Positions 12,548-60,668 of a stretch of 60,668 nucleotides of DNA are shown here, one piece after another. The stretch is from an uncultured Candidatus Saccharibacteria bacterium (GTDB lineage: Bacteria > Patescibacteriota > Minisyncoccia > Phycocordibacterales > UBA9973): contig CAYODR010000004.1 in the NCBI GenBank assembly GCA_964402895.1, positions 34,209-94,876 on the forward strand, read 5' to 3'. The first letter of the stretch is position 1. Each line of letters begins with the position of its first letter. The translations under genes were made by a program, and so were the position numbers. A model generated the notes under the pieces. That model saw only the letters and a list, made by a program, of their open reading frames with translations, was not told the DNA's origin and made no database searches.

Positions 12548-12660
12548 GAAGCGCTATATATTTTTTTCATATAACTTTAAAAAATGATTTTAATAGTAAT
12601 TGCTTGAAAATAATGTCTTTTTAAGATACAGTATTTTCATTATTGTTAATAAATAAAAAT

Positions 12661-13260
12661 ATGCATCCAAAGAAAGAAAGAAGCTTTGTTATTATTAAGC
12701 CAGATGGGGTACAGAGATCTCTTATCGGAGAGATAGTTTCTCGTTTTGAGCGTGCAGGATTAAAGATTGTAGGTTTGAAGTTTGGAATGCTAGATAGTGA
12801 AAAAATCTGGCAACATTACTCAAAAGACGATATTTGGTTTAAATCAAAAGGTGAGGGTATCGTCAAGTCTCGCACAGACGCTGGTCTTCCTATTGAAAAA
12901 GAAGCCATAGAATATGGTAAAGATATCATTCGTGCACTTGAGAAATTTATGACAGCTGGCCCAGTTGTTTCTATGGTTCTAGAGGGTAATCAGGCTGTAG
13001 TTGTAGTAAAGAAGCTTGTAGGGGGTACAGAGCCTGCTACATCTGATGTTGGGACTATTAGAGGGGATTTTACGCTTGATTCATATGATATGGCGACAAT
13101 TGATGATCGTGCAGTACGCAACCTTATACACTGCTCAGATAAAGTAGAAGAAGCAGAGAGAGAAATTGCGCTTTGGTTTGATGAAAAAGAAATGCTTTCA
13201 TATAGACATATCAGAGAAAGTATTCTTTATGATGTAAATTTGGACGGTATTCTTGAATAA
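12661..13260 (+). CDS. ndk: nucleoside-diphosphate kinase, long variant (199 aa)
   Basis: ERSFVIIKPDGVQR, GPVVSMVLEG, GTIRGDF, and active-site NLIHCSD. Confidence 0.85.
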   Translation: MHPKKERSFVIIKPDGVQRSLIGEIVSRFERAGLKIVGLKFGMLDSEKIWQHYSKDDIWFKSKGEGIVKSRTDAGLPIEKEAIEYGKDIIRALEKFMTAGPVVSMVLEGNQAVVVVKKLVGGTEPATSDVGTIRGDFTLDSYDMATIDDRAVRNLIHCSDKVEEAEREIALWFDEKEMLSYRHIRESILYDVNLDGILE

Positions 13261-13608: not shown

Positions 13609-14019
13609 ATGAATAGGAATATTTTAGCCAAAAAATCTTTAATTTTAATACTCTTGGTCTCGGGGCTGCACTTTTTGGCTGAGGTATTTTATTGGTATGT
13701 ATCTATTTGGTGGTTTGATAATTTAATGCATTTCTTAGGGGGATTATTTTTAGCGTTCTTTAGTGCAACTATTTTTTATAAGTATTTAAAAGATAAGAAT
13801 AACCGAAAAATATTTTTTTCAATTATGTTTTTTGTTATATTGATTGGTCTTGGTTGGGAGCTATTTGAATACGCTGTACAGTATTTTATTAAAGGATCAC
13901 ATCGGCTTGCCGATATAACAGACTCTTTTTTTGATATGATTTTTGATATTTTGGGCGGAGCACTTGGAATTCTTTTTGTGCTTAAAGAAAAGTCGGGGTA
14001 CAATATAAGGCATGAGTAA
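13609..14019 (+). CDS. small integral membrane protein (about 4 TM, possibly VanZ-like)
   Basis: Hydrophobic segments and a C-terminal D..D..FD.LGG.LG pattern. The start was set to the internal ATG. Confidence 0.6.
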   Translation: MNRNILAKKSLILILLVSGLHFLAEVFYWYVSIWWFDNLMHFLGGLFLAFFSATIFYKYLKDKNNRKIFFSIMFFVILIGLGWELFEYAVQYFIKGSHRLADITDSFFDMIFDILGGALGILFVLKEKSGYNIRHE

Positions 14020-15388
14020 GAAACTTAAACTTACATTTGCAGGTGGGGCAGGGTCTGTAACTGGCTCCAACTTTTTATTAGAAGGAAAAGATGGAGAGCG
14101 TGAAGTAAAATTTTTAATTGATTGCGGGCTTTCACAAGGGTCTCGTGATATGGAAGATAAGAATTGGGAACCTTTTTCCTATGACCCAAAGACGATAGAT
14201 ATTCTTTTTGTGACCCATGCACATATAGATCATATTGGTAGAATACCTAAGCTTATATATGATGGTTTTGATGGAGAGATTGTTTCAACTATACCGACAA
14301 AGGATTTATCAGAACTTATGCTTGAAGATACTTCAAATATTCTTTCAAAAGATGATAATGAATTGGTACCAAAGATTTATAGTAAAAGTGTATTAGAAAA
14401 AGTCTTTCAGAAATGGAAAGTCGTTGATTATAAACAAGAATATAGATTTGGAGAATTTATTTTTAGATTTATAGATGCTGGGCATATTTTGGGGTCTGGG
14501 ATGCTTGAGATTATTTATAATAATAAAAAGATAATTTTTACAGGAGACTTGGGGAATTCACCTTCGCCACTGCTTAAAGATACTGAAAGAATCAGAAATG
14601 TAGATTACTTAATCATGGAAAGTGTATATGGTGATAGAAACCATCCTGAGAGAAGTGAGAGAAGAAATCGACTTGAAAAAAATATTGAAGATAATTATAA
14701 ACGAAGTGGAGCACTTTTGATACCCACTTTTTCACTAGAAAGATCGCAAGAGCTTTTGTTTGAAATAAATGAATTAGTTGAGAATGAAAGAATACCTCAG
14801 ATGCCTGTTTTTTTTGATTCGCCTCTAGCTATTAAGCTTACAAAAATTTATCAAAAGTATTCTCAATACTTCAATGCATTAGCTAGAAAATTAATTTCAG
14901 AAGGGGATGACATTTTTAATTTCAAAGGCTTAAAAAATACTCTTGAAACCGAAGAGTCAAAAGAAATTGTTCGGATGTCAAATCCTAAAATAATTATTGC
15001 GGGTAGTGGGATGAGTAACGGAGGAAGAATACTTCATCATCATATAAATCATTTACCAGATCCAAATAGCACACTGGTCTTAACCGGATATCAAACAGCT
15101 GGGACATTAGGAAGGCTTATACAAGATGGTGCAAAACAGGTGAGAATAAATGGGCAAGATGTAGAAGTTAGAGCGCATGTTAAATTTATTACGGGATATT
15201 CTGGTCATAAAGATTCTGATAGATTGGTGGATTTTGTATCAGACACAGCAGACACTTTGAAGAAAGTTTTCGTGGTGATGGGTGAACCTAAGTCTTCACT
15301 TTTCTTGACACAAAGATTAAGAGATTATCTTGGGGTAATGGCTTATGCGCCAGACGAGAAAGATGTGGTAGAATTAGATTGTAATTAA
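14012..15388 (+). CDS. MBL-fold beta-CASP family hydrolase (RNA-metabolising nuclease type)
   Basis: THAHIDHIGR (HxHxDH) and downstream beta-CASP-like blocks (GDLG, ESVYGDR, ..GYSGHKD). Confidence 0.8.
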   Translation: MSKKLKLTFAGGAGSVTGSNFLLEGKDGEREVKFLIDCGLSQGSRDMEDKNWEPFSYDPKTIDILFVTHAHIDHIGRIPKLIYDGFDGEIVSTIPTKDLSELMLEDTSNILSKDDNELVPKIYSKSVLEKVFQKWKVVDYKQEYRFGEFIFRFIDAGHILGSGMLEIIYNNKKIIFTGDLGNSPSPLLKDTERIRNVDYLIMESVYGDRNHPERSERRNRLEKNIEDNYKRSGALLIPTFSLERSQELLFEINELVENERIPQMPVFFDSPLAIKLTKIYQKYSQYFNALARKLISEGDDIFNFKGLKNTLETEESKEIVRMSNPKIIIAGSGMSNGGRILHHHINHLPDPNSTLVLTGYQTAGTLGRLIQDGAKQVRINGQDVEVRAHVKFITGYSGHKDSDRLVDFVSDTADTLKKVFVVMGEPKSSLFLTQRLRDYLGVMAYAPDEKDVVELDCN

Positions 15389-15403
15389 TTTAGATAAATA
15401 AAA

Positions 15404-16057
15404 ATGGAAGATAATCACGATAAGAAAAGATACTATTATAATGGCCCAATTGATTTTAAAGATAAGAAAGGTTTTTTAAGAGCAAAGATTGGTGTTAGTG
15501 GAGCAGCTGAGACTGGGCATTGTGGATTGGGCGCACTTGAATCAGCAAAAGAGCTCGGTAGAGAAATTGTAAGACAAGGGGGAATCTTAATTACCGGTGC
15601 TACTACTGGCTTTCCACTTTGGTCTGCGATGGGCACAAAAGATGAGGGCGGTGTATCTATTGGATTTTCTCCGGCAGCTACTCAAAAGGAACATCTGGAG
15701 ACATATCGTTTACCAATAGATTATATGGATCTAGTTGTCTATACTGGATTTGGATTTCCTGGAAGAGATATTCTCTTTACTAGAAGTTGTGATGCGGTGA
15801 TTATAGGTTGTGGTAGAATCGGCACACTTCATGAATTTACTGTAGCCTATGAAGACAACAAGCCGATAGGTGTGCTTGAGGGTCCTTGGACTATGGATGA
15901 GCAGATTAGAGATATCATGGATAAGAGTAATCGTCCTTCTGATCGGGTCATATATGATAGTGACCCCAAGGTTTTGATTGAGAAGCTTATGAAGATTATA
16001 GAAAAAGACCGTGAAGAAGGAGTAGAGCTTTACATTTCAGAAGTAAAGTCCGGGTAG
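15404..16057 (+). CDS. LOG/TIGR00725-like Rossmann-fold nucleotide-binding protein
   Basis: IGVSGAAETG...ELGREI...GGILITGATTG...GG.SIGFSP...GRIGTLHEF. Confidence 0.55.
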   Translation: MEDNHDKKRYYYNGPIDFKDKKGFLRAKIGVSGAAETGHCGLGALESAKELGREIVRQGGILITGATTGFPLWSAMGTKDEGGVSIGFSPAATQKEHLETYRLPIDYMDLVVYTGFGFPGRDILFTRSCDAVIIGCGRIGTLHEFTVAYEDNKPIGVLEGPWTMDEQIRDIMDKSNRPSDRVIYDSDPKVLIEKLMKIIEKDREEGVELYISEVKSG

Positions 16058-16271: not shown

Positions 16272-19200
16272 ATGCAACAACAACCACAAAAAAGCGATAG
16301 AGCACAAAAAGAAGAAAAGATTTTAAAATTCTGGCAAGAGAATAAAATCTTTGAAAAGACTTTAGAAAAAGATTCAGCAAAAGGAGAATTCGTTTTCTAT
16401 GAAGGTCCACCTACTGCAAATGCAAAACCGGCACTTCACCATATGGCAGCTAGAGCTTTTAAAGATGTTGTACCACGCTATAAAACTATGGCGGGGTTTA
16501 AGGTTGCAAGAAGAGCGGGTTGGGATACACATGGATTACCCGTTGAACTTCAAATAGAAAAAAAACTCGGTTTAACTTCTAAAAAAGATATTGAGGAATA
16601 TGGTATCGCCAAGTTTAATAAAGAATGTAAAGACAGTGTTTTTACATACATCAAAGATTGGGAGACATTTACTGATCGTATAGGGTATTGGGTAGATAAA
16701 GACAGTGCGTATTACACTTTTAATAATTCATATATTGAATCTCTGTGGAACATTGTTGGTGTAGCTGATACTAAAAAACTTTTATATAAAGATTACAAAA
16801 TCATTCCTTGGTGTGCGCGTTGTGGTACAGGACTTTCTTCACACGAACTTGCACAAGAGTATCAAGATGTAAAAGACCTATCTGTCTATGCAGAATTTAA
16901 AATAAAAGATAATGAAAAGTTCAAAGACACAAGTATCGTAGCTTGGACTACAACTCCATGGACTTTGCCTGGCAATGTGGCACTTGCTATGGGGGCAGAG
17001 ATTGAATATGCACATGTATTGACTAACGAGAAAAAACTGATCATTGCAAAAGAGAGATTAGAATCTTTAGTTTCAGAATATGAAGTTTTAGGTGAATATA
17101 AAGGTAAAGATTTTGAAGGAATAGAGTATGAGCCACTATATCCGTATCTTATAAATAATATTTCTGCAGCTGAAGCAGGAAAAGTTAAAAATGCCTATAA
17201 AGTATATTTGGCGGATTTTGTGACAACTACTGATGGTACAGGTATTGTACATGTTGCGCCAATGTATGGAGCTGATGACTTTGATTTGGGTACAAAATAT
17301 AATTTACCAAAATTCCACACAGTGGGAGTGGATGGAAGATTTATTGAAGGAACCGACTTTCTTGCTAATAGATTTGTAAAAGAAGAAGATGTGGCGGTGG
17401 ACATTGTTAAAGACTTGGCTCATCGTGGACTTTTATTTAAAAAAGAAAAGTATGAACACAGCTATCCACATTGCTGGAGATGTAAGACCCCGCTTCTTTA
17501 TTATGCAAGAGATTCTTGGTTTATTAGAATGTCATCACTTCGTGATGATTTGGTTCAAAATAATGAAAGTATTAATTGGGAACCATCGCATATTAAAAAT
17601 GGTAGGTTCGGAGAGTGGCTTAAAGATATTAAAGATTGGGCTATTTCAAGAGAAAGATATTGGGGGACGCCTCTACCTATTTGGACAGCAGAAGACGGCG
17701 AGCTTTTGGTCGTAGATAGTATTCAAAAAATTAAAGATTTTTCACAAAAATTTAAAAATACTTATACCCTTATTCGTCACGGCGAGACAGGATATAATCT
17801 AAAAGATGTTTGGAGTTATGGTAATGAATCAAATGACCCGCTTACTCCAAATGGGGAAAACCAGATGAGAGAGTCTGCTCTGAATTTAGGCCAGATTGAT
17901 TTGATAATATCTTCTCCATTTTTACGAACTAAACAAAGCGCTTTGATTGTTGCAGATAAACTCGGCATTGATAAAGAAAGTATTATCTATGATAAAGCTT
18001 TTGAGGAATGGAATCCTGGTAAAGACTTTGATGATATTCCAAATTCAATATTTTTTGATTCTGTTGATGAGTTAAATGAGTATGGATTTAAATCAGAAGA
18101 TGGAGAATCTTTTCGGGATGTTATAAAAAGAGTAGGTGAGGGCTTGGCACTACTTGAAGAAAAATACGAAGGAAAAAATATTCTCATTGTGGCACATGGA
18201 GGGATACTTCGTGCGCTTGAATTTATTTCAAACGGAGTTTCAGTTGATCGGTATAAATTTTTAAAACAAAATTATAATAGTTTTAAAAATGCAGAATTTA
18301 GAAAAATAGATTTTGTAAAACTTCCAATTAACGAAAATTCAGAACTTGATTTGCATAAGCCATATATAGATGACATAGATTTATTTAAAGATGGTAAAAA
18401 GTTTACGCGTGTTAAAGAGGTGATGGATGTGTGGTTTGATAGTGGGTCTATGCCTTTTGCGCAAATGCATTATCCTTTTGATAATAAAGAGTATGTTGAT
18501 AATGTTGCTTTTCCTGCAGACTTTATTTCAGAAGGTATTGATCAAACTCGCGGATGGTTTTATACACTTCACGCAGTGGCGGCTATCTTGGGCAAGGGTG
18601 CGGCCTATAAAAATGTTATTTGTCTAGGACATTTGCTTGATGCGCAAGGTAAAAAGATGTCTAAATCTATCGGAAATATTGTTGACCCATGGGAACAAAT
18701 GGATAAATATGGAGCAGACACTCTAAGGCTTTGGATGTATTCTGTCAATCAGCCGGGTGATTCAAAAAACTATGACGAAAGAACCGTGCTTGAAATCAAT
18801 AGGCAGATTTTTGGACTCTTATTTAACATGCTGTCTTTTTATGAGCTTTATAGAAATCAAAGTATAGAGGATCAAGATATAAAACCTCAGAATATTTTGG
18901 ATATCTGGATTCTTTCCAGATTAAATGAGCTTGTTTCTTTTACTACAAACAGCCTTGATAATTATAAACTCTTTGAACCAATCCGTGCCCTGAGAGTATT
19001 CATTGATGATTTTTCTACATGGTATTTAAGAAGGTCTAGAGAAAGAATAAAAGAAGGAGATATTGAGGCTAAATTTACACTTTATAAAGTTATTAAAACT
19101 ATTTCAAAAATTATTGCTCCTTCCGCGCCCTTTGCTGCAGAAGAAATCTGGCAAATATTAAAAACAGATCAAGATGAAGAAAGTGTACACTTAAGTAATT

Positions 19201-19703
19201 GGCCATCTGTCGGGGAAATAAATTCTGAAGTTTTAAATAACATGCAGACTGTAAGAGATATCTGTACTTTAGGAAATGCTCTTAGAAAAAAAACAGGTAT
19301 TGCAGTAAAACAACCGCTTGCAAGTATTGTTTTGAAACAAGAATTGCTTAGTGAAGAATACAATCTTTTGATTAAAGATGAGCTTAATATCAAAAATGTT
19401 TTAAGAGATGAAAGTCAGGAGGATGAAGCGATGCTTGATATAGAAATAACTCCAGAATTAAGAGAAGAAGGTATGGCGCGAGAATTTATTAGACTTGTCC
19501 AAGACAAAAGAAAATCTGCCGGACTTAAACCAGATGATATTATTATACTTGAAATAAAAACCTCTGAAGACGGAGAAAGAATTATCAGCAAATTCAGCGC
19601 AGATATTACTAAGACTGTGGGAGCAGATAGTATTCTATTCAAAGAATTTAATGGAGAGCCGGAAAATATTGGGGGGATTGATTTTGTTATCAACATTTCA
19701 TAA
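16272..19703 (+). CDS. ileS: isoleucine--tRNA ligase with a nested histidine-phosphatase-like domain
   Basis: GWDTHGLPVE, CP1 block TTTPWTLPGN, ISRERYWGTPLPIW, DVWFDSGSMPF and KMSKS. Codons of about 497-690 carry RHG and AHGG phosphatase motifs. Confidence 0.95.
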   Translation: MQQQPQKSDRAQKEEKILKFWQENKIFEKTLEKDSAKGEFVFYEGPPTANAKPALHHMAARAFKDVVPRYKTMAGFKVARRAGWDTHGLPVELQIEKKLGLTSKKDIEEYGIAKFNKECKDSVFTYIKDWETFTDRIGYWVDKDSAYYTFNNSYIESLWNIVGVADTKKLLYKDYKIIPWCARCGTGLSSHELAQEYQDVKDLSVYAEFKIKDNEKFKDTSIVAWTTTPWTLPGNVALAMGAEIEYAHVLTNEKKLIIAKERLESLVSEYEVLGEYKGKDFEGIEYEPLYPYLINNISAAEAGKVKNAYKVYLADFVTTTDGTGIVHVAPMYGADDFDLGTKYNLPKFHTVGVDGRFIEGTDFLANRFVKEEDVAVDIVKDLAHRGLLFKKEKYEHSYPHCWRCKTPLLYYARDSWFIRMSSLRDDLVQNNESINWEPSHIKNGRFGEWLKDIKDWAISRERYWGTPLPIWTAEDGELLVVDSIQKIKDFSQKFKNTYTLIRHGETGYNLKDVWSYGNESNDPLTPNGENQMRESALNLGQIDLIISSPFLRTKQSALIVADKLGIDKESIIYDKAFEEWNPGKDFDDIPNSIFFDSVDELNEYGFKSEDGESFRDVIKRVGEGLALLEEKYEGKNILIVAHGGILRALEFISNGVSVDRYKFLKQNYNSFKNAEFRKIDFVKLPINENSELDLHKPYIDDIDLFKDGKKFTRVKEVMDVWFDSGSMPFAQMHYPFDNKEYVDNVAFPADFISEGIDQTRGWFYTLHAVAAILGKGAAYKNVICLGHLLDAQGKKMSKSIGNIVDPWEQMDKYGADTLRLWMYSVNQPGDSKNYDERTVLEINRQIFGLLFNMLSFYELYRNQSIEDQDIKPQNILDIWILSRLNELVSFTTNSLDNYKLFEPIRALRVFIDDFSTWYLRRSRERIKEGDIEAKFTLYKVIKTISKIIAPSAPFAAEEIWQILKTDQDEESVHLSNWPSVGEINSEVLNNMQTVRDICTLGNALRKKTGIAVKQPLASIVLKQELLSEEYNLLIKDELNIKNVLRDESQEDEAMLDIEITPELREEGMAREFIRLVQDKRKSAGLKPDDIIILEIKTSEDGERIISKFSADITKTVGADSILFKEFNGEPENIGGIDFVINIS

Positions 19704-59765: not shown

Positions 59766-60668
<903 letters not shown>

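What the first reader, a model, noticed from the sequence alone, without database searches (positions are those of the whole stretch)
17760..18342. Complete histidine-phosphatase (PGAM-like) domain nested inside isoleucyl-tRNA synthetase
What the sequence shows: the 1143-codon ileS ORF is collinear with class I IleRS, through GWDTHGLPVE, the CP1 block TTTPWTLPGN and ISRERYWGTPLPIW, then DLHKPYID, DVWFDSGSMPF and KMSKS. Thermus/eukaryote-like IleRS has only a short Cys-rich connective segment between PLPIW and DLHKPY. Here that position holds about 190 codons carrying the ordered signature set of the histidine-phosphatase (cofactor-dependent phosphoglycerate mutase-like) superfamily. The motifs are LIRHGETGYN (RHG, nt 17775-17783), SSPFLRTKQSA, ESFRDV and ILIVAHGGILRAL (second His at nt 18195). 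There is no stop or frame change at either junction, so this is a nested domain and not a neighbouring gene. The Cys ligands of the replaced segment are gone, and the HIGH position reads P-A-L-H-H instead of H-x-G-H. Inference: a second, phosphoester-hydrolysing active site has been grafted onto an essential synthetase. I do not know of this architecture being described.
Basis: partly seen in the sequence, partly recalled or inferred. Interest (0 to 1): 0.85.

Follow-up and report, generated by a model that had tools for sequence, protein, structure and literature searches.

The report
Phosphatase domain nested inside isoleucyl-tRNA synthetase
The isoleucine-charging enzyme of this tiny-genome (Patescibacteria/CPR) bacterium really does carry a complete, conserved phosphatase domain spliced into its middle; hundreds of related species share it, sister lineages encode the same phosphatase as a separate gene right next to ileS, and I found no paper describing it.

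Summary
ORF 16272-19703 (1143 aa) is a full type 2 IleRS (TIGR00392 872 bits). A complete His_Phos_1 domain (PF00300, E 1e-25) occupies aa ~496-690, where P. megaterium IleRS2 has ~17 residues of the CP3 zinc knuckle. It is not an assembly artefact: 120/120 best full-length homologs, 80 verified GTDB species representatives and an 87%-identical independent assembly have the same uninterrupted ORF. The catalytic set (R502, H503, N509, R552, E579, H642) is invariant, insert dN/dS is 0.12, and AF2 pLDDT is 93-97. The fold resembles small PhoE/GpgP/phosphoserine-phosphatase/CobC enzymes, not true dPGM. New finding: the closest free-standing relatives lie directly between argS and ileS (45/52 testable loci), and nested and free forms are mutually exclusive (103 vs 57 loci). 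Other lineages carry two to four copies at several IleRS sites. The phosphatase is therefore a dedicated IleRS partner, probably captured from the neighbouring gene. Its substrate is unknown. The "P-A-L-H-H" motif is the published, active G/AXHH IleRS2 variant and is unrelated to the insert. No paper describing the architecture was found. Verdict: a real, undescribed variant; interest about 0.72.

The parts
16272..19703 (+). ileS ORF, 1143 codons plus TAA: type 2 isoleucyl-tRNA synthetase carrying the nested domain
   Evidence: TIGR00392 872 bits; best solved relative PmIleRS2 8C8W E 5e-239; Foldseek TMt 0.79
16428..16442 (+). P-A-L-H-H: non-canonical G/AXHH form of the class I HIGH signature (aa 53-57)
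   Evidence: (A/G)(L/I)HH in 120/120 homologs; a published active variant that confers mupirocin hyper-resistance (PMC10485003)
16884..17471 (+). CP1 editing domain (aa ~205-400) with TTTPWTLPGN and GTGIVHVAPMYGADD motifs, flanked by the retained CP-core zinc ligands CARC (16812-16823) and CWRC (17472-17483)
   Evidence: invariant columns; boundaries by analogy to Ca/Sc IleRS (PMC7191050, PMC7955072)
17628..17666 (+). CP2-CP3 linker IKDWAISRERYWG (aa 453-465), equivalent to ScIleRS 453-ARDWNVSRNRYWG-465, which lines the tRNA CCA-end/reveromycin pocket
   Evidence: for the sequence; (PMC7955072) for the role of the yeast segment; equivalence is by alignment and inferred
17685..17699 (+). Degenerate first half of the CP3 zinc knuckle (TAEDG where PmIleRS2 has CEGC)
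17757..18341 (+). Nested histidine-phosphatase (His_Phos_1) domain, aa 496-690; equals a whole free-standing ~190-aa phosphatase
17775..17783 (+). RHG motif: R502, nucleophile H503, G504
   Evidence: R and H 120/120; kept in essentially all copies at all sites
17796..17798 (+). N509, invariant phosphate-pocket Asn
17925..17927 (+). R552 of SSPFLR, second phosphate-binding Arg
18006..18008 (+). E579, predicted general acid/base
   Evidence: 120/120; role by homology to PhoE/dPGM (established knowledge)
18195..18200 (+). H642-G643, second catalytic His
18321..18407 (+). Return to native CP3: LPINENSELDLHKPYID and the degenerate second half-knuckle LFKDGKKFT (CPVC/CxCGG in relatives)
18426..18668 (+). 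Second half of the Rossmann fold, from DVWFDSGSMPF to KMSKS (18654-18668)
18900..19700 (+). Anticodon-binding domain (PF08264, aa 877-1017) and type 2 C-terminal domain (DUF5915, aa 1054-1142)

Best explanation
This is a genuine bifunctional protein. It is a working type 2 isoleucyl-tRNA synthetase with a complete, catalytically competent histidine phosphatase of the small PhoE/GpgP/phosphoserine-phosphatase/CobC type inserted into its CP3 subdomain, the structurally most variable loop region just upstream of the second Rossmann half. The phosphatase is a dedicated partner of IleRS. In sister Patescibacteria lineages it is a separate ~190-aa gene in a tight argS-phosphatase-ileS arrangement. 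In the Paceibacteria lineage of this window the whole gene has been moved into the ileS reading frame, and the free gene is then absent. Mechanistically (inferred from homology), the insert should hydrolyse a phosphomonoester through a phospho-His503 intermediate. R502, R552, N509 and H642 would hold the phosphate, and E579 would act as general acid/base. The synthetase part charges tRNA(Ile) normally, using the known active ALHH variant of the HIGH motif. Shown here: the nesting, its wide distribution, purifying selection, the conserved active site, an independent fold, and the gene-neighbourhood/fusion link with ileS. Inferred: phosphatase activity, and that its role is functionally tied to IleRS rather than being mere co-expression. 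The most plausible substrate is a phosphorylated nucleotide, small metabolite or RNA end handled near the synthetic site. The substrate itself is not determined.
For: Nesting and domain identity. Not an artefact: all 120 best full-length homologs (56-87% id, many on contigs >100 kb) carry PF00300. One uninterrupted ORF spans the insert in all complete GTDB loci L003-L082. The independent assembly L172 (87% id) has identical synteny. Active site: R502/H503/N509/R552/E579/H642 are invariant in 120/120 and are kept in essentially all copies at all sites. Selection: insert dN/dS 0.12 vs 0.06 for the flanks at dS~1; insert pairwise identity 0.52, similar to the C-terminal tRNA-binding domain at 0.49. 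Fold: pLDDT 93-97 within the full-length model; insert alone pLDDT 93.5, pTM 0.91; Foldseek top hits are Rv2419c GpgP, H. thermophilus and E. histolytica phosphoserine phosphatases, PhoE, CobC and TIGAR, with dPGMs lower. IleRS partnership: the free-standing relatives P0277, P0275, P0322 and P0376 lie between argS and an insert-less ileS with gaps of 1, 112, -8 and 9 nt. Among the 80 metagenomic loci nearest the free form, 23 are nested and 45 of 52 testable free genes have ileS within 400 nt downstream. Nested and free forms are mutually exclusive (103 vs 57 loci, no overlap), and in 30/85 nested loci argS abuts ileS directly. The free protein aligns end to end with the insert. Every long protein among the best 150 exhaustive hits that could be classified is an IleRS, and some carry 2-4 copies at different sites. 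IleRS competence: intact KMSKS, editing motifs and CP-core zinc ligands; ALHH is active in D. radiodurans IleRS2 (PMC10485003).
Against: There is no biochemical evidence for any activity or substrate. No curated phosphatase subfamily threshold is met (CobC 72 vs 163 bits; PSP 52 vs 277), so the substrate cannot be transferred by homology. I could not obtain model coordinates, so whether the phosphatase pocket faces the synthetic site or the tRNA path is unknown. The insert evolves faster than the catalytic core. It is acidic (pI 4.8), which does not suggest extensive RNA binding, although the whole protein is acidic. Gene adjacency and fusion can reflect co-expression only. The loci sampled for adjacency are relatives of one query and are not phylogenetically independent. 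I could not test whether a second ileS exists elsewhere in these genomes.
Confidence: 0.7

Rival explanations
1. Piggy-back housekeeping phosphatase. The domain is an ordinary broad-specificity metabolic phosphatase (for example for phosphoserine, sugar phosphates or nucleotides) whose only link to IleRS is co-expression and stability in a minimal genome. It has no mechanistic connection with aminoacylation.
For: Structural neighbours are metabolic phosphatases. JGI names some free-standing relatives 'broad specificity phosphatase PhoE'. Reduced genomes often fuse unrelated genes. The insert evolves faster than the IleRS core. Some free relatives are not next to ileS (P0387, P0361, tandem P0265).
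Against: The association is specific and repeated. Every long host protein found is an IleRS, with insertions at three or more different sites and 2-4 copies. 87% of testable free genes abut ileS. Simple loss of the intergenic spacer would give an N-terminal fusion, not repeated internal insertions in loops around the catalytic core.
Confidence: 0.25
2. tRNA-end or active-site 'repair/detox' module. The phosphatase removes a blocking phosphate from something that enters the IleRS synthetic site. Candidates are a 3'(2')-phosphorylated or pyrophosphorylated tRNA CCA end, or a phosphorylated inhibitor or nucleotide. This would be a new kind of quality control built into a synthetase.
For: The insert sits in CP3, ~30 residues after the CP2-3 linker, which in yeast IleRS lines the tRNA CCA-end/reveromycin pocket. 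Internal placement at several sites around the catalytic body suggests spatial positioning matters. The host carries the antibiotic hyper-resistance ALHH motif. A second hydrolase (PF06821 serine hydrolase) also recurs next to or inside ileS.
Against: There is no direct evidence. The domain is acidic. Only IleRS carries it, whereas tRNA-end damage would affect all tRNAs. The His_Phos relatives nearest in structure act on small molecules, and from my own knowledge none is established as an RNA 3'-phosphatase. The ALHH motif is not correlated with the insert.
Confidence: 0.12
3. Non-catalytic structural or sensory module. The domain merely replaces the CP3 zinc knuckle as a scaffold, or binds a phosphorylated metabolite to regulate IleRS without turnover.
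For: It occupies the position of a small structural element that has lost its Cys ligands in this lineage. CP3 is structurally variable among IleRS (PMC7191050).
Against: All catalytic residues are invariant in 120/120 homologs and in nearly all copies. Many nested homologs keep the zinc knuckle as well, so the insert does not simply substitute for it. Free-standing orthologs exist.
Confidence: 0.06
4. Assembly chimera, frameshift artefact or mis-joined neighbouring gene.
For: The window is a metagenome-like sequence. Fragmented versions of the gene exist on some long-read contigs.
Against: Hundreds of independent assemblies give the same uninterrupted ORF. There is no composition break. The fragmented cases lie on contigs where many other genes are also broken.
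Confidence: 0.01
5. The insert is the organism's glycolytic cofactor-dependent phosphoglycerate mutase.
For: It belongs to the same superfamily, and dPGMs appear among the Foldseek hits.
Against: TIGR01258 pgm_1 scores 17.9 bits vs a cut-off of 81.7, and archaeal dPGM 45.9 vs 225. The domain has the ~190-aa phosphatase size and reads HGG rather than HGN at the second His. dPGMs rank below the small phosphatases.
Confidence: 0.03

Closest known systems
Type 2 IleRS with the non-canonical G/AXHH signature (D. radiodurans IleRS2; P. megaterium IleRS2 structures 8C8U-8C8W; Brkic et al. 2023, PMC10485003)
   Same: Same enzyme family and subtype. P. megaterium IleRS2 is the best solved relative (E 5e-239; Foldseek TMt 0.79). 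The ALHH motif is identical to wild-type DrIleRS2. KMSKS, CP1 editing motifs and the type 2 C-terminal domain (DUF5915) are present.
   Different: None of the described IleRS2 has a ~190-aa enzyme domain in CP3; they have ~17 residues there. This protein has also lost the CP3 zinc ligands.
Small histidine phosphatases of branch 1: PhoE (1H2E/1EBB), M. tuberculosis GpgP Rv2419c (4PZ9/4QIH), H. thermophilus and E. histolytica phosphoserine phosphatases (4IJ6, 6M1X), CobC (6E4B, 6NRU)
   Same: Same fold and size (~190-210 aa) and the same catalytic constellation (RHG, second Arg, Glu, second His). TMt 0.70-0.76, sequence E 1e-7.
   Different: Those are free-standing enzymes with known small-molecule substrates. 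The insert reaches no curated subfamily cut-off and is embedded in, or operon-linked to, IleRS.
CP1 editing domain of class Ia synthetases
   Same: It is the precedent for a hydrolytic domain nested in the connective polypeptide of the Rossmann fold of IleRS/ValRS/LeuRS (established knowledge; domain maps in PMC7191050 and PMC7955072).
   Different: CP1 is universal in the class, hydrolyses aminoacyl esters and has an unrelated fold. The new domain is lineage-restricted, sits in CP3 and has phosphomonoesterase chemistry.
NCBIfam NF040702 'ileS_w_GNAT' (IleRS containing an N-acetyltransferase domain)
   Same: It is another catalogued IleRS that carries an extra enzyme domain (listed).
   Different: The extra domain is different (GNAT). 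The window protein scores 341 bits against a cut-off of 1999, so it is not a member.
Bifunctional RNase H/acid phosphatase (NF005567, Rv2228c-like)
   Same: A CobC/PhoE-like His_Phos domain fused to an enzyme that acts on nucleic acids. It is the second-best NCBIfam match of the insert (71.7 bits).
   Different: That is an end-to-end fusion, not a nested one, with a different partner enzyme. The score is below the cut-off (326).

Membership tests
Histidine phosphatase superfamily, branch 1 (Pfam PF00300) | Profile match above the gathering score over most of the domain | tested here: met
   90.7-95.2 bits vs a cut-off of 21.7, profile 2-183/194
Histidine phosphatase superfamily, branch 1 (Pfam PF00300) | RHG motif with nucleophilic His after strand 1 | tested here: met
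   R502-H503-G504; R and H 120/120, G 119/120
Histidine phosphatase superfamily, branch 1 (Pfam PF00300) | Second Arg, second His and acidic proton donor completing the phosphate pocket | tested here: met
   R552, H642 and E579 invariant in 120/120; the pattern is kept in nearly all copies at all sites
Histidine phosphatase superfamily, branch 1 (Pfam PF00300) | dPGM-like alpha/beta fold | tested here: met
   AF2 pLDDT 93.5, pTM 0.91; Foldseek probability 1.00 and TMt up to 0.76 to PhoE/GpgP/PSP/CobC
Histidine phosphatase superfamily, branch 1 (Pfam PF00300) | Phosphomonoesterase or mutase activity via a phospho-histidine intermediate | not testable with these tools
   Requires an enzyme assay
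Cofactor-dependent phosphoglycerate mutase (TIGR01258; NF038349) | Score above the curated cut-off | tested here: not met
   17.9 vs 81.7 bits and 45.9 vs 225 bits; dPGM structures rank below the small phosphatases
Alpha-ribazole phosphatase CobC (TIGR03162) | Score above the curated cut-off | tested here: not met
   71.9 vs 162.9 bits
Phosphoserine phosphatase 1 / PspA (NF009994, NF045917) | Score above the curated cut-off | tested here: not met
   52 vs 277 bits and 44.5 vs 350 bits
Isoleucine-tRNA ligase (TIGR00392) | Equivalog score above the cut-off | tested here: met
   872 bits vs 621.4
Isoleucine-tRNA ligase (TIGR00392) | Class I signatures (HIGH-type and KMSKS) and CP1 editing motifs | tested here: met
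   ALHH (the known active variant), KMSKS, TTTPWTLPGN and GTGIVHVAPMYGADD
Isoleucine-tRNA ligase (TIGR00392) | Aminoacylation of tRNA(Ile); sole ileS of the genome | not testable with these tools
   Only 60.7 kb of the genome is available, and only one ileS lies in the window
Type 2 IleRS with G/AXHH motif (PMC10485003) | Gly/Ala at position 1 and His at position 3 of the signature, in an IleRS2 background | tested here: met
   P-A-L-H-H; closest solved structures are IleRS2; type 2 C-terminus DUF5915
Type 2 IleRS with G/AXHH motif (PMC10485003) | Mupirocin hyper-resistance | not testable with these tools
   Needs a Ki measurement
MupA/MupB acquired mupirocin-resistant IleRS (NF000257/NF000258) | Score above the curated cut-off | tested here: not met
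   761 and 752 bits vs 1900

The most novel reading that the evidence does not exclude
The IleRS-associated phosphatase, whether nested here or operon-encoded in sister lineages, is a new kind of synthetase-embedded quality-control or repair activity. It would clear a blocking phosphate from what enters the synthetic site, for example a 3'/2'-phosphorylated or toxin-pyrophosphorylated tRNA CCA end, or a phosphorylated inhibitor or nucleotide. Together with the co-occurring PF06821 serine hydrolase and the ALHH hyper-resistance motif, this would make the Paceibacteria IleRS a self-defending drug/toxin target.
Probability: 0.12. Interest if true: 0.9.

Novelty: new variant of a known kind. Interest (0 to 1): 0.72.

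Why it matters
Aminoacyl-tRNA synthetases are among the best-studied enzymes, and their accessory domains almost always reveal biology such as editing, tRNA binding or signalling. Here an entire class of uncultivated, ultra-small bacteria has kept a catalytically intact phosphatase physically or genetically coupled to IleRS. The coupling takes three forms: a separate operon gene, a domain nested at three or more positions, and arrays of up to four copies. That pattern is the classic signature of a functional partnership, yet no known step of isoleucine charging needs a phosphomonoesterase. Working out the substrate could reveal an unknown reaction linked to tRNA charging or to antibiotic/toxin resistance in Patescibacteria, or else a striking case of metabolic gene packing. 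It also provides a natural example of a ~190-aa enzyme tolerated inside the CP3 loop of an essential class I synthetase, which is useful for protein engineering. Finally, it corrects database annotation, where these proteins are named only 'class I tRNA ligase family protein'.

Tried and rejected
(1) Split-gene idea. Several hits begin exactly at the insert (MRHG...), and short gene calls lie on 120-kb contigs (P0013, P0007). Their contigs have many other fragmented genes (thymidylate synthase in 2 pieces, EF-Tu in 3), so these are indel errors, not split ileS genes.

(2) HIGH-motif degeneration as a sign of a dead or altered synthetase. Rejected: ALHH is a published active variant, and the insert also occurs with GIHH, HYGH and HIGH.

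(3) The insert as a replacement for the zinc knuckle. Rejected as a general explanation, because about 15 of 80 species keep CxxC...CxC around the insert.

(4) Net charge as a test for RNA binding. Uninformative: the insert has pI 4.8, but the whole IleRS, including its tRNA-binding C-terminus, is equally acidic.

(5) Names of free-standing relatives. Almost none carry a name; the few that do are called 'broad specificity phosphatase PhoE'.

(6) A tree of domain copies to count independent insertions. Nearest-neighbour identities are all 35-50%, too flat to resolve. It only shows that copies within one protein are old (<=42% identical) and not assembly repeats.

(7) Literature. Seven full-text searches combining IleRS/aaRS, histidine phosphatase/phosphoglycerate mutase and CPR/Patescibacteria/Parcubacteria found no description. 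The corpus excludes most subscription journals.

(8) The first metagenome scan, with a 14-sequence alignment, failed for lack of a conserved stretch. It was repeated with 5 sequences.

(9) Geometry of the phosphatase pocket relative to the synthetic site. Not obtainable, because the tools return no coordinates.
Full report
OBSERVATION

The window encodes one 1143-codon ORF at 16272-19703 (+). Pfam places tRNA-synt_1 in two stretches (break at aa ~489), His_Phos_1 (PF00300) at aa 499-677 (E 1.2e-25, 90.7 bits vs cut-off 21.7, profile 2-182 of 194), then Anticodon_1 and DUF5915. NCBIfam's ileS equivalog scores 872 bits against a cut-off of 621. GC content shows no break at the insert. Against the closest solved structure, P. 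megaterium IleRS2 (8C8W, E 5e-239), the alignment stops at query 481/chain 467 and resumes at query 691/chain 485. About 209 residues therefore stand where the reference has ~17, between the two CxxC halves of a zinc knuckle. Here those halves read TAEDG and FKDG. By the domain maps of Candida and yeast IleRS this is the CP3 subdomain, which links CP2 to the second Rossmann half and is the most variable part of IleRS (PMC7191050; PMC7955072).

NOT AN ARTEFACT, NOT RARE

All 120 best full-length database homologs (56-87% identity, 1099-1221 aa, many on contigs over 100 kb) carry PF00300. Their source names are Paceibacterota, Nomurabacteria, Minisyncoccia and Patescibacteria. A scan of GTDB species representatives found at least 355 related stretches. 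The best 80 all contain the full insert, within a single uninterrupted ORF wherever the locus is complete. Record titles include Nomura-, Zambryski- and Taylor-bacteria, Paceibacteria and Minisyncoccia. An independent assembly with an 87%-identical protein (L172) has the same gene order as the window: NDK ... beta-CASP RNase - SLOG - IleRS[His_Phos] - RecO - DUF11 - class II aaRS - PGA_cap - RNase R. Apparent 'split' versions lie on contigs whose other genes are also fragmented, so they are sequencing-error artefacts.

THE INSERT LOOKS LIKE A WORKING ENZYME

In an alignment of the 120 homologs, R502, H503, N509, R552, E579, E612, R620 and H642 are invariant, and G504 and G643 are present in 119/120. 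The same pattern holds for nearly all of ~330 domain copies collected from all architectures. Between the window and L172, Nei-Gojobori dN/dS is 0.12 for the insert and 0.06 for each flanking IleRS part, at dS about 1. Mean pairwise identity of the insert (0.52) is lower than that of the Rossmann halves (0.79-0.81) but equal to that of the C-terminal tRNA-binding domain (0.49). AlphaFold2 gives pLDDT 85.2 and pTM 0.79 for the whole protein, with 93-97 across the insert. The insert alone gives pLDDT 93.5 and pTM 0.91. Foldseek ranks the small phosphatases first, with TMt 0.70-0.76: M. tuberculosis GpgP Rv2419c, mycobacterial hydrolase 6S2Q, Hydrogenobacter and Entamoeba phosphoserine phosphatases, TIGAR, PhoE and CobC. 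True dPGMs rank lower. By sequence, PhoE is the best solved relative (E 1.5e-7). No curated subfamily cut-off is reached: CobC 72 vs 163 bits, PSP 52 vs 277, dPGM 18 vs 82. The domain is therefore a PhoE/CobC-like phosphomonoesterase of unassigned substrate, not a phosphoglycerate mutase.

THE SYNTHETASE PART LOOKS INTACT

KMSKS, the CP1 editing motifs and both CP-core Cys pairs are invariant. D. radiodurans IleRS2 is exactly ALHH, is catalytically normal, and is hyper-resistant to mupirocin (Ki 6.6 mM) (PMC10485003). In the family it is (A/G)(L/I)HH in 120/120. It is not coupled to the insert: among GTDB species with the nested domain, the host IleRS has ALHH, GIHH, canonical HYGH or HIGH. 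About 15 of the 80 keep CxxC...CxC on both sides of the insert.

THE KEY NEW FINDING: A DEDICATED IleRS PARTNER

An exhaustive HMMER search with the insert against 1.84 billion representatives gave 258 hits at E<=1e-10. A local HMM survey of all 387 proteins fetched up to that point gave the following:
- 176 with the order N-junction/insert/C-junction.
- 3 with two tandem copies in that same site (P0270, P0281, P0342).
- Others with additional or alternative copies, either just after DVWFDSG...HYPF or just before the anticodon-binding domain (P0258, P0261, P0266, P0279, P0282, P0384).
- One fragment with four copies (P0250).

Pfam confirms these are IleRS. Copies within one protein are at most 42% identical, so they are old rather than assembly repeats.

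The closest free-standing single-domain relatives on long contigs lie immediately upstream of an insert-less ileS, in the order argS - phosphatase - ileS - recO. These are P0277 (1-nt gap), P0275 (112 nt), P0322 (8-nt overlap) and P0376 (9 nt). Two others (P0361, P0387) lie elsewhere. The free protein aligns with the insert end to end: 'KNTYFLLRHG...AEFRRIN*' vs 'KNTYTLIRHG...AEFRKID'.

A systematic test used the 80 metagenomic loci most similar to the free form (39-62% identity). Of these, 23 are nested in an IleRS ORF and 57 are free. Of 52 testable free genes, 45 (87%) have ileS starting within 400 nt downstream, and 37 of those also have argS directly upstream. Across 160 loci, nested and free forms are mutually exclusive: 103 nested with no free copy in the flanks, and 57 free with no nested copy. 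In 30 of 85 nested loci with enough upstream sequence, argS abuts ileS, leaving the slot empty. The two neighbour IleRS that I read in full (L083, L085) belong to the HYGH/zinc-knuckle IleRS2 subtype, so the partnership spans IleRS subtypes.

INTERPRETATION

The following are shown: a real, ancient, selected, independently folding phosphatase domain with an intact active site, inserted in CP3 of a complete IleRS2. It is interchangeable in evolution with a gene that is tightly linked to ileS.

The following are inferred:
(i) The domain hydrolyses a phosphomonoester by the canonical phospho-His mechanism. H503 is the nucleophile, R502/R552/N509/H642 form the phosphate pocket, and E579 is the acid/base.
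(ii) The nested form arose by relocation of the neighbouring gene.
(iii) The phosphatase's role is tied to IleRS.

Point (iii) rests on the Rosetta-stone pattern and on the fact that the fusions are internal, repeated and exclusive to IleRS. It also rests on position. The insert lies ~30 residues after the CP2-3 linker IKDWAISRERYWG, whose yeast equivalent forms a wall of the tRNA CCA-end/reveromycin A pocket. I could not test the geometry because coordinates are not returned.

I rate the whole statement at about 0.7. My component ratings are: nesting and reality >0.98; catalytic competence about 0.8; functional coupling, as opposed to mere co-expression, about 0.6. The substrate is open. The main rival is an unrelated housekeeping phosphatase riding on IleRS (about 0.25). 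A repair/detox role at the tRNA 3' end or synthetic site is the most interesting reading not excluded (about 0.12). Structural-only, dPGM and artefact readings are unlikely.

NOVELTY

Hundreds of such sequences sit in public databases, annotated 'class I tRNA ligase family protein' or 'isoleucyl-tRNA synthetase' and with PF00300 precomputed. Seven full-text searches found no paper describing or discussing the architecture. Two recent IleRS evolution papers do not mention it. Enzyme domains nested in or appended to synthetases are a known phenomenon: CP1 editing domains, and NCBIfam's IleRS-with-GNAT. I therefore class this as a new variant of a known kind, with an unusually strong comparative-genomic case for an unrecognised IleRS-linked activity.

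Noticed in passing
proteins P0250, P0258, P0261, P0266, P0270, P0279, P0281, P0282, P0342: Other CPR IleRS carry two to four His_Phos domains. Some are tandem copies in the same CP3 site, and others sit just after DVWFDSG..HYPF or just before the anticodon-binding domain. All keep the catalytic residues, and copies within one protein are <=42% identical.
   Followed up: partly
P0384 aa 562-734; L060:4985-5584, L017:4993-5550, L064:5654-6223, L075:5518-6096, L082:6080-6682; L089:5567-6139: A PF06821 serine hydrolase (YdeN/RBBP9-type alpha/beta hydrolase) also travels with ileS. It is nested inside one IleRS (P0384), free-standing 0-1.1 kb downstream of ileS in five loci, and adjacent to a free His_Phos gene in L089. 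It is a second ileS-associated hydrolase of unknown role.
   Followed up: partly
window 16428-16442: The ALHH signature predicts that this IleRS is hyper-resistant to mupirocin, as shown for D. radiodurans IleRS2 (PMC10485003). Related Paceibacteria IleRS show ALHH, GIHH, HYGH or HIGH.
   Followed up: yes
L001 and L002 (ENA ERZ1286166 contig_675; JGI Ga0558126_01164): On these ~120-kb contigs ileS and several other genes (thymidylate synthase, EF-Tu) are broken into pieces. This is typical of indel errors in long-read assemblies and can mimic 'split' synthetase genes.
   Followed up: yes
window 14012-16057 (and L172:1463-3511): A beta-CASP/RMMBL metallo-beta-lactamase RNase (the precomputed Pfam list for the L172 ortholog also includes Anti-Pycsar_Apyc1) and a SLOG cluster-4 (LOG-like) protein sit directly upstream of ileS. 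This arrangement is conserved in the 87% relative.
   Followed up: no
window 12643-13260: The nucleoside diphosphate kinase ORF is 205 aa, and its Pfam NDK match comes in two stretches. That is long for an NDK and may indicate an insertion or extension.
   Followed up: no
window 59766-60668: The 5' 875 nt of a 23S rRNA gene run off the window end. No 16S rRNA or tRNA gene lies anywhere in the 60.7-kb window, so the 23S gene appears unlinked from a 16S gene on its upstream side.
   Followed up: no
proteins P0264, P0265, P0272, P0284, P0305, P0313, P0317, P0336, P0359, P0369, P0377; locus L087: Free-standing tandem di-His_Phos proteins of ~405-426 aa are also close relatives of the insert. The one examined (P0265) is not near ileS and lies a few genes from RtcB and Archease.
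   Followed up: partly
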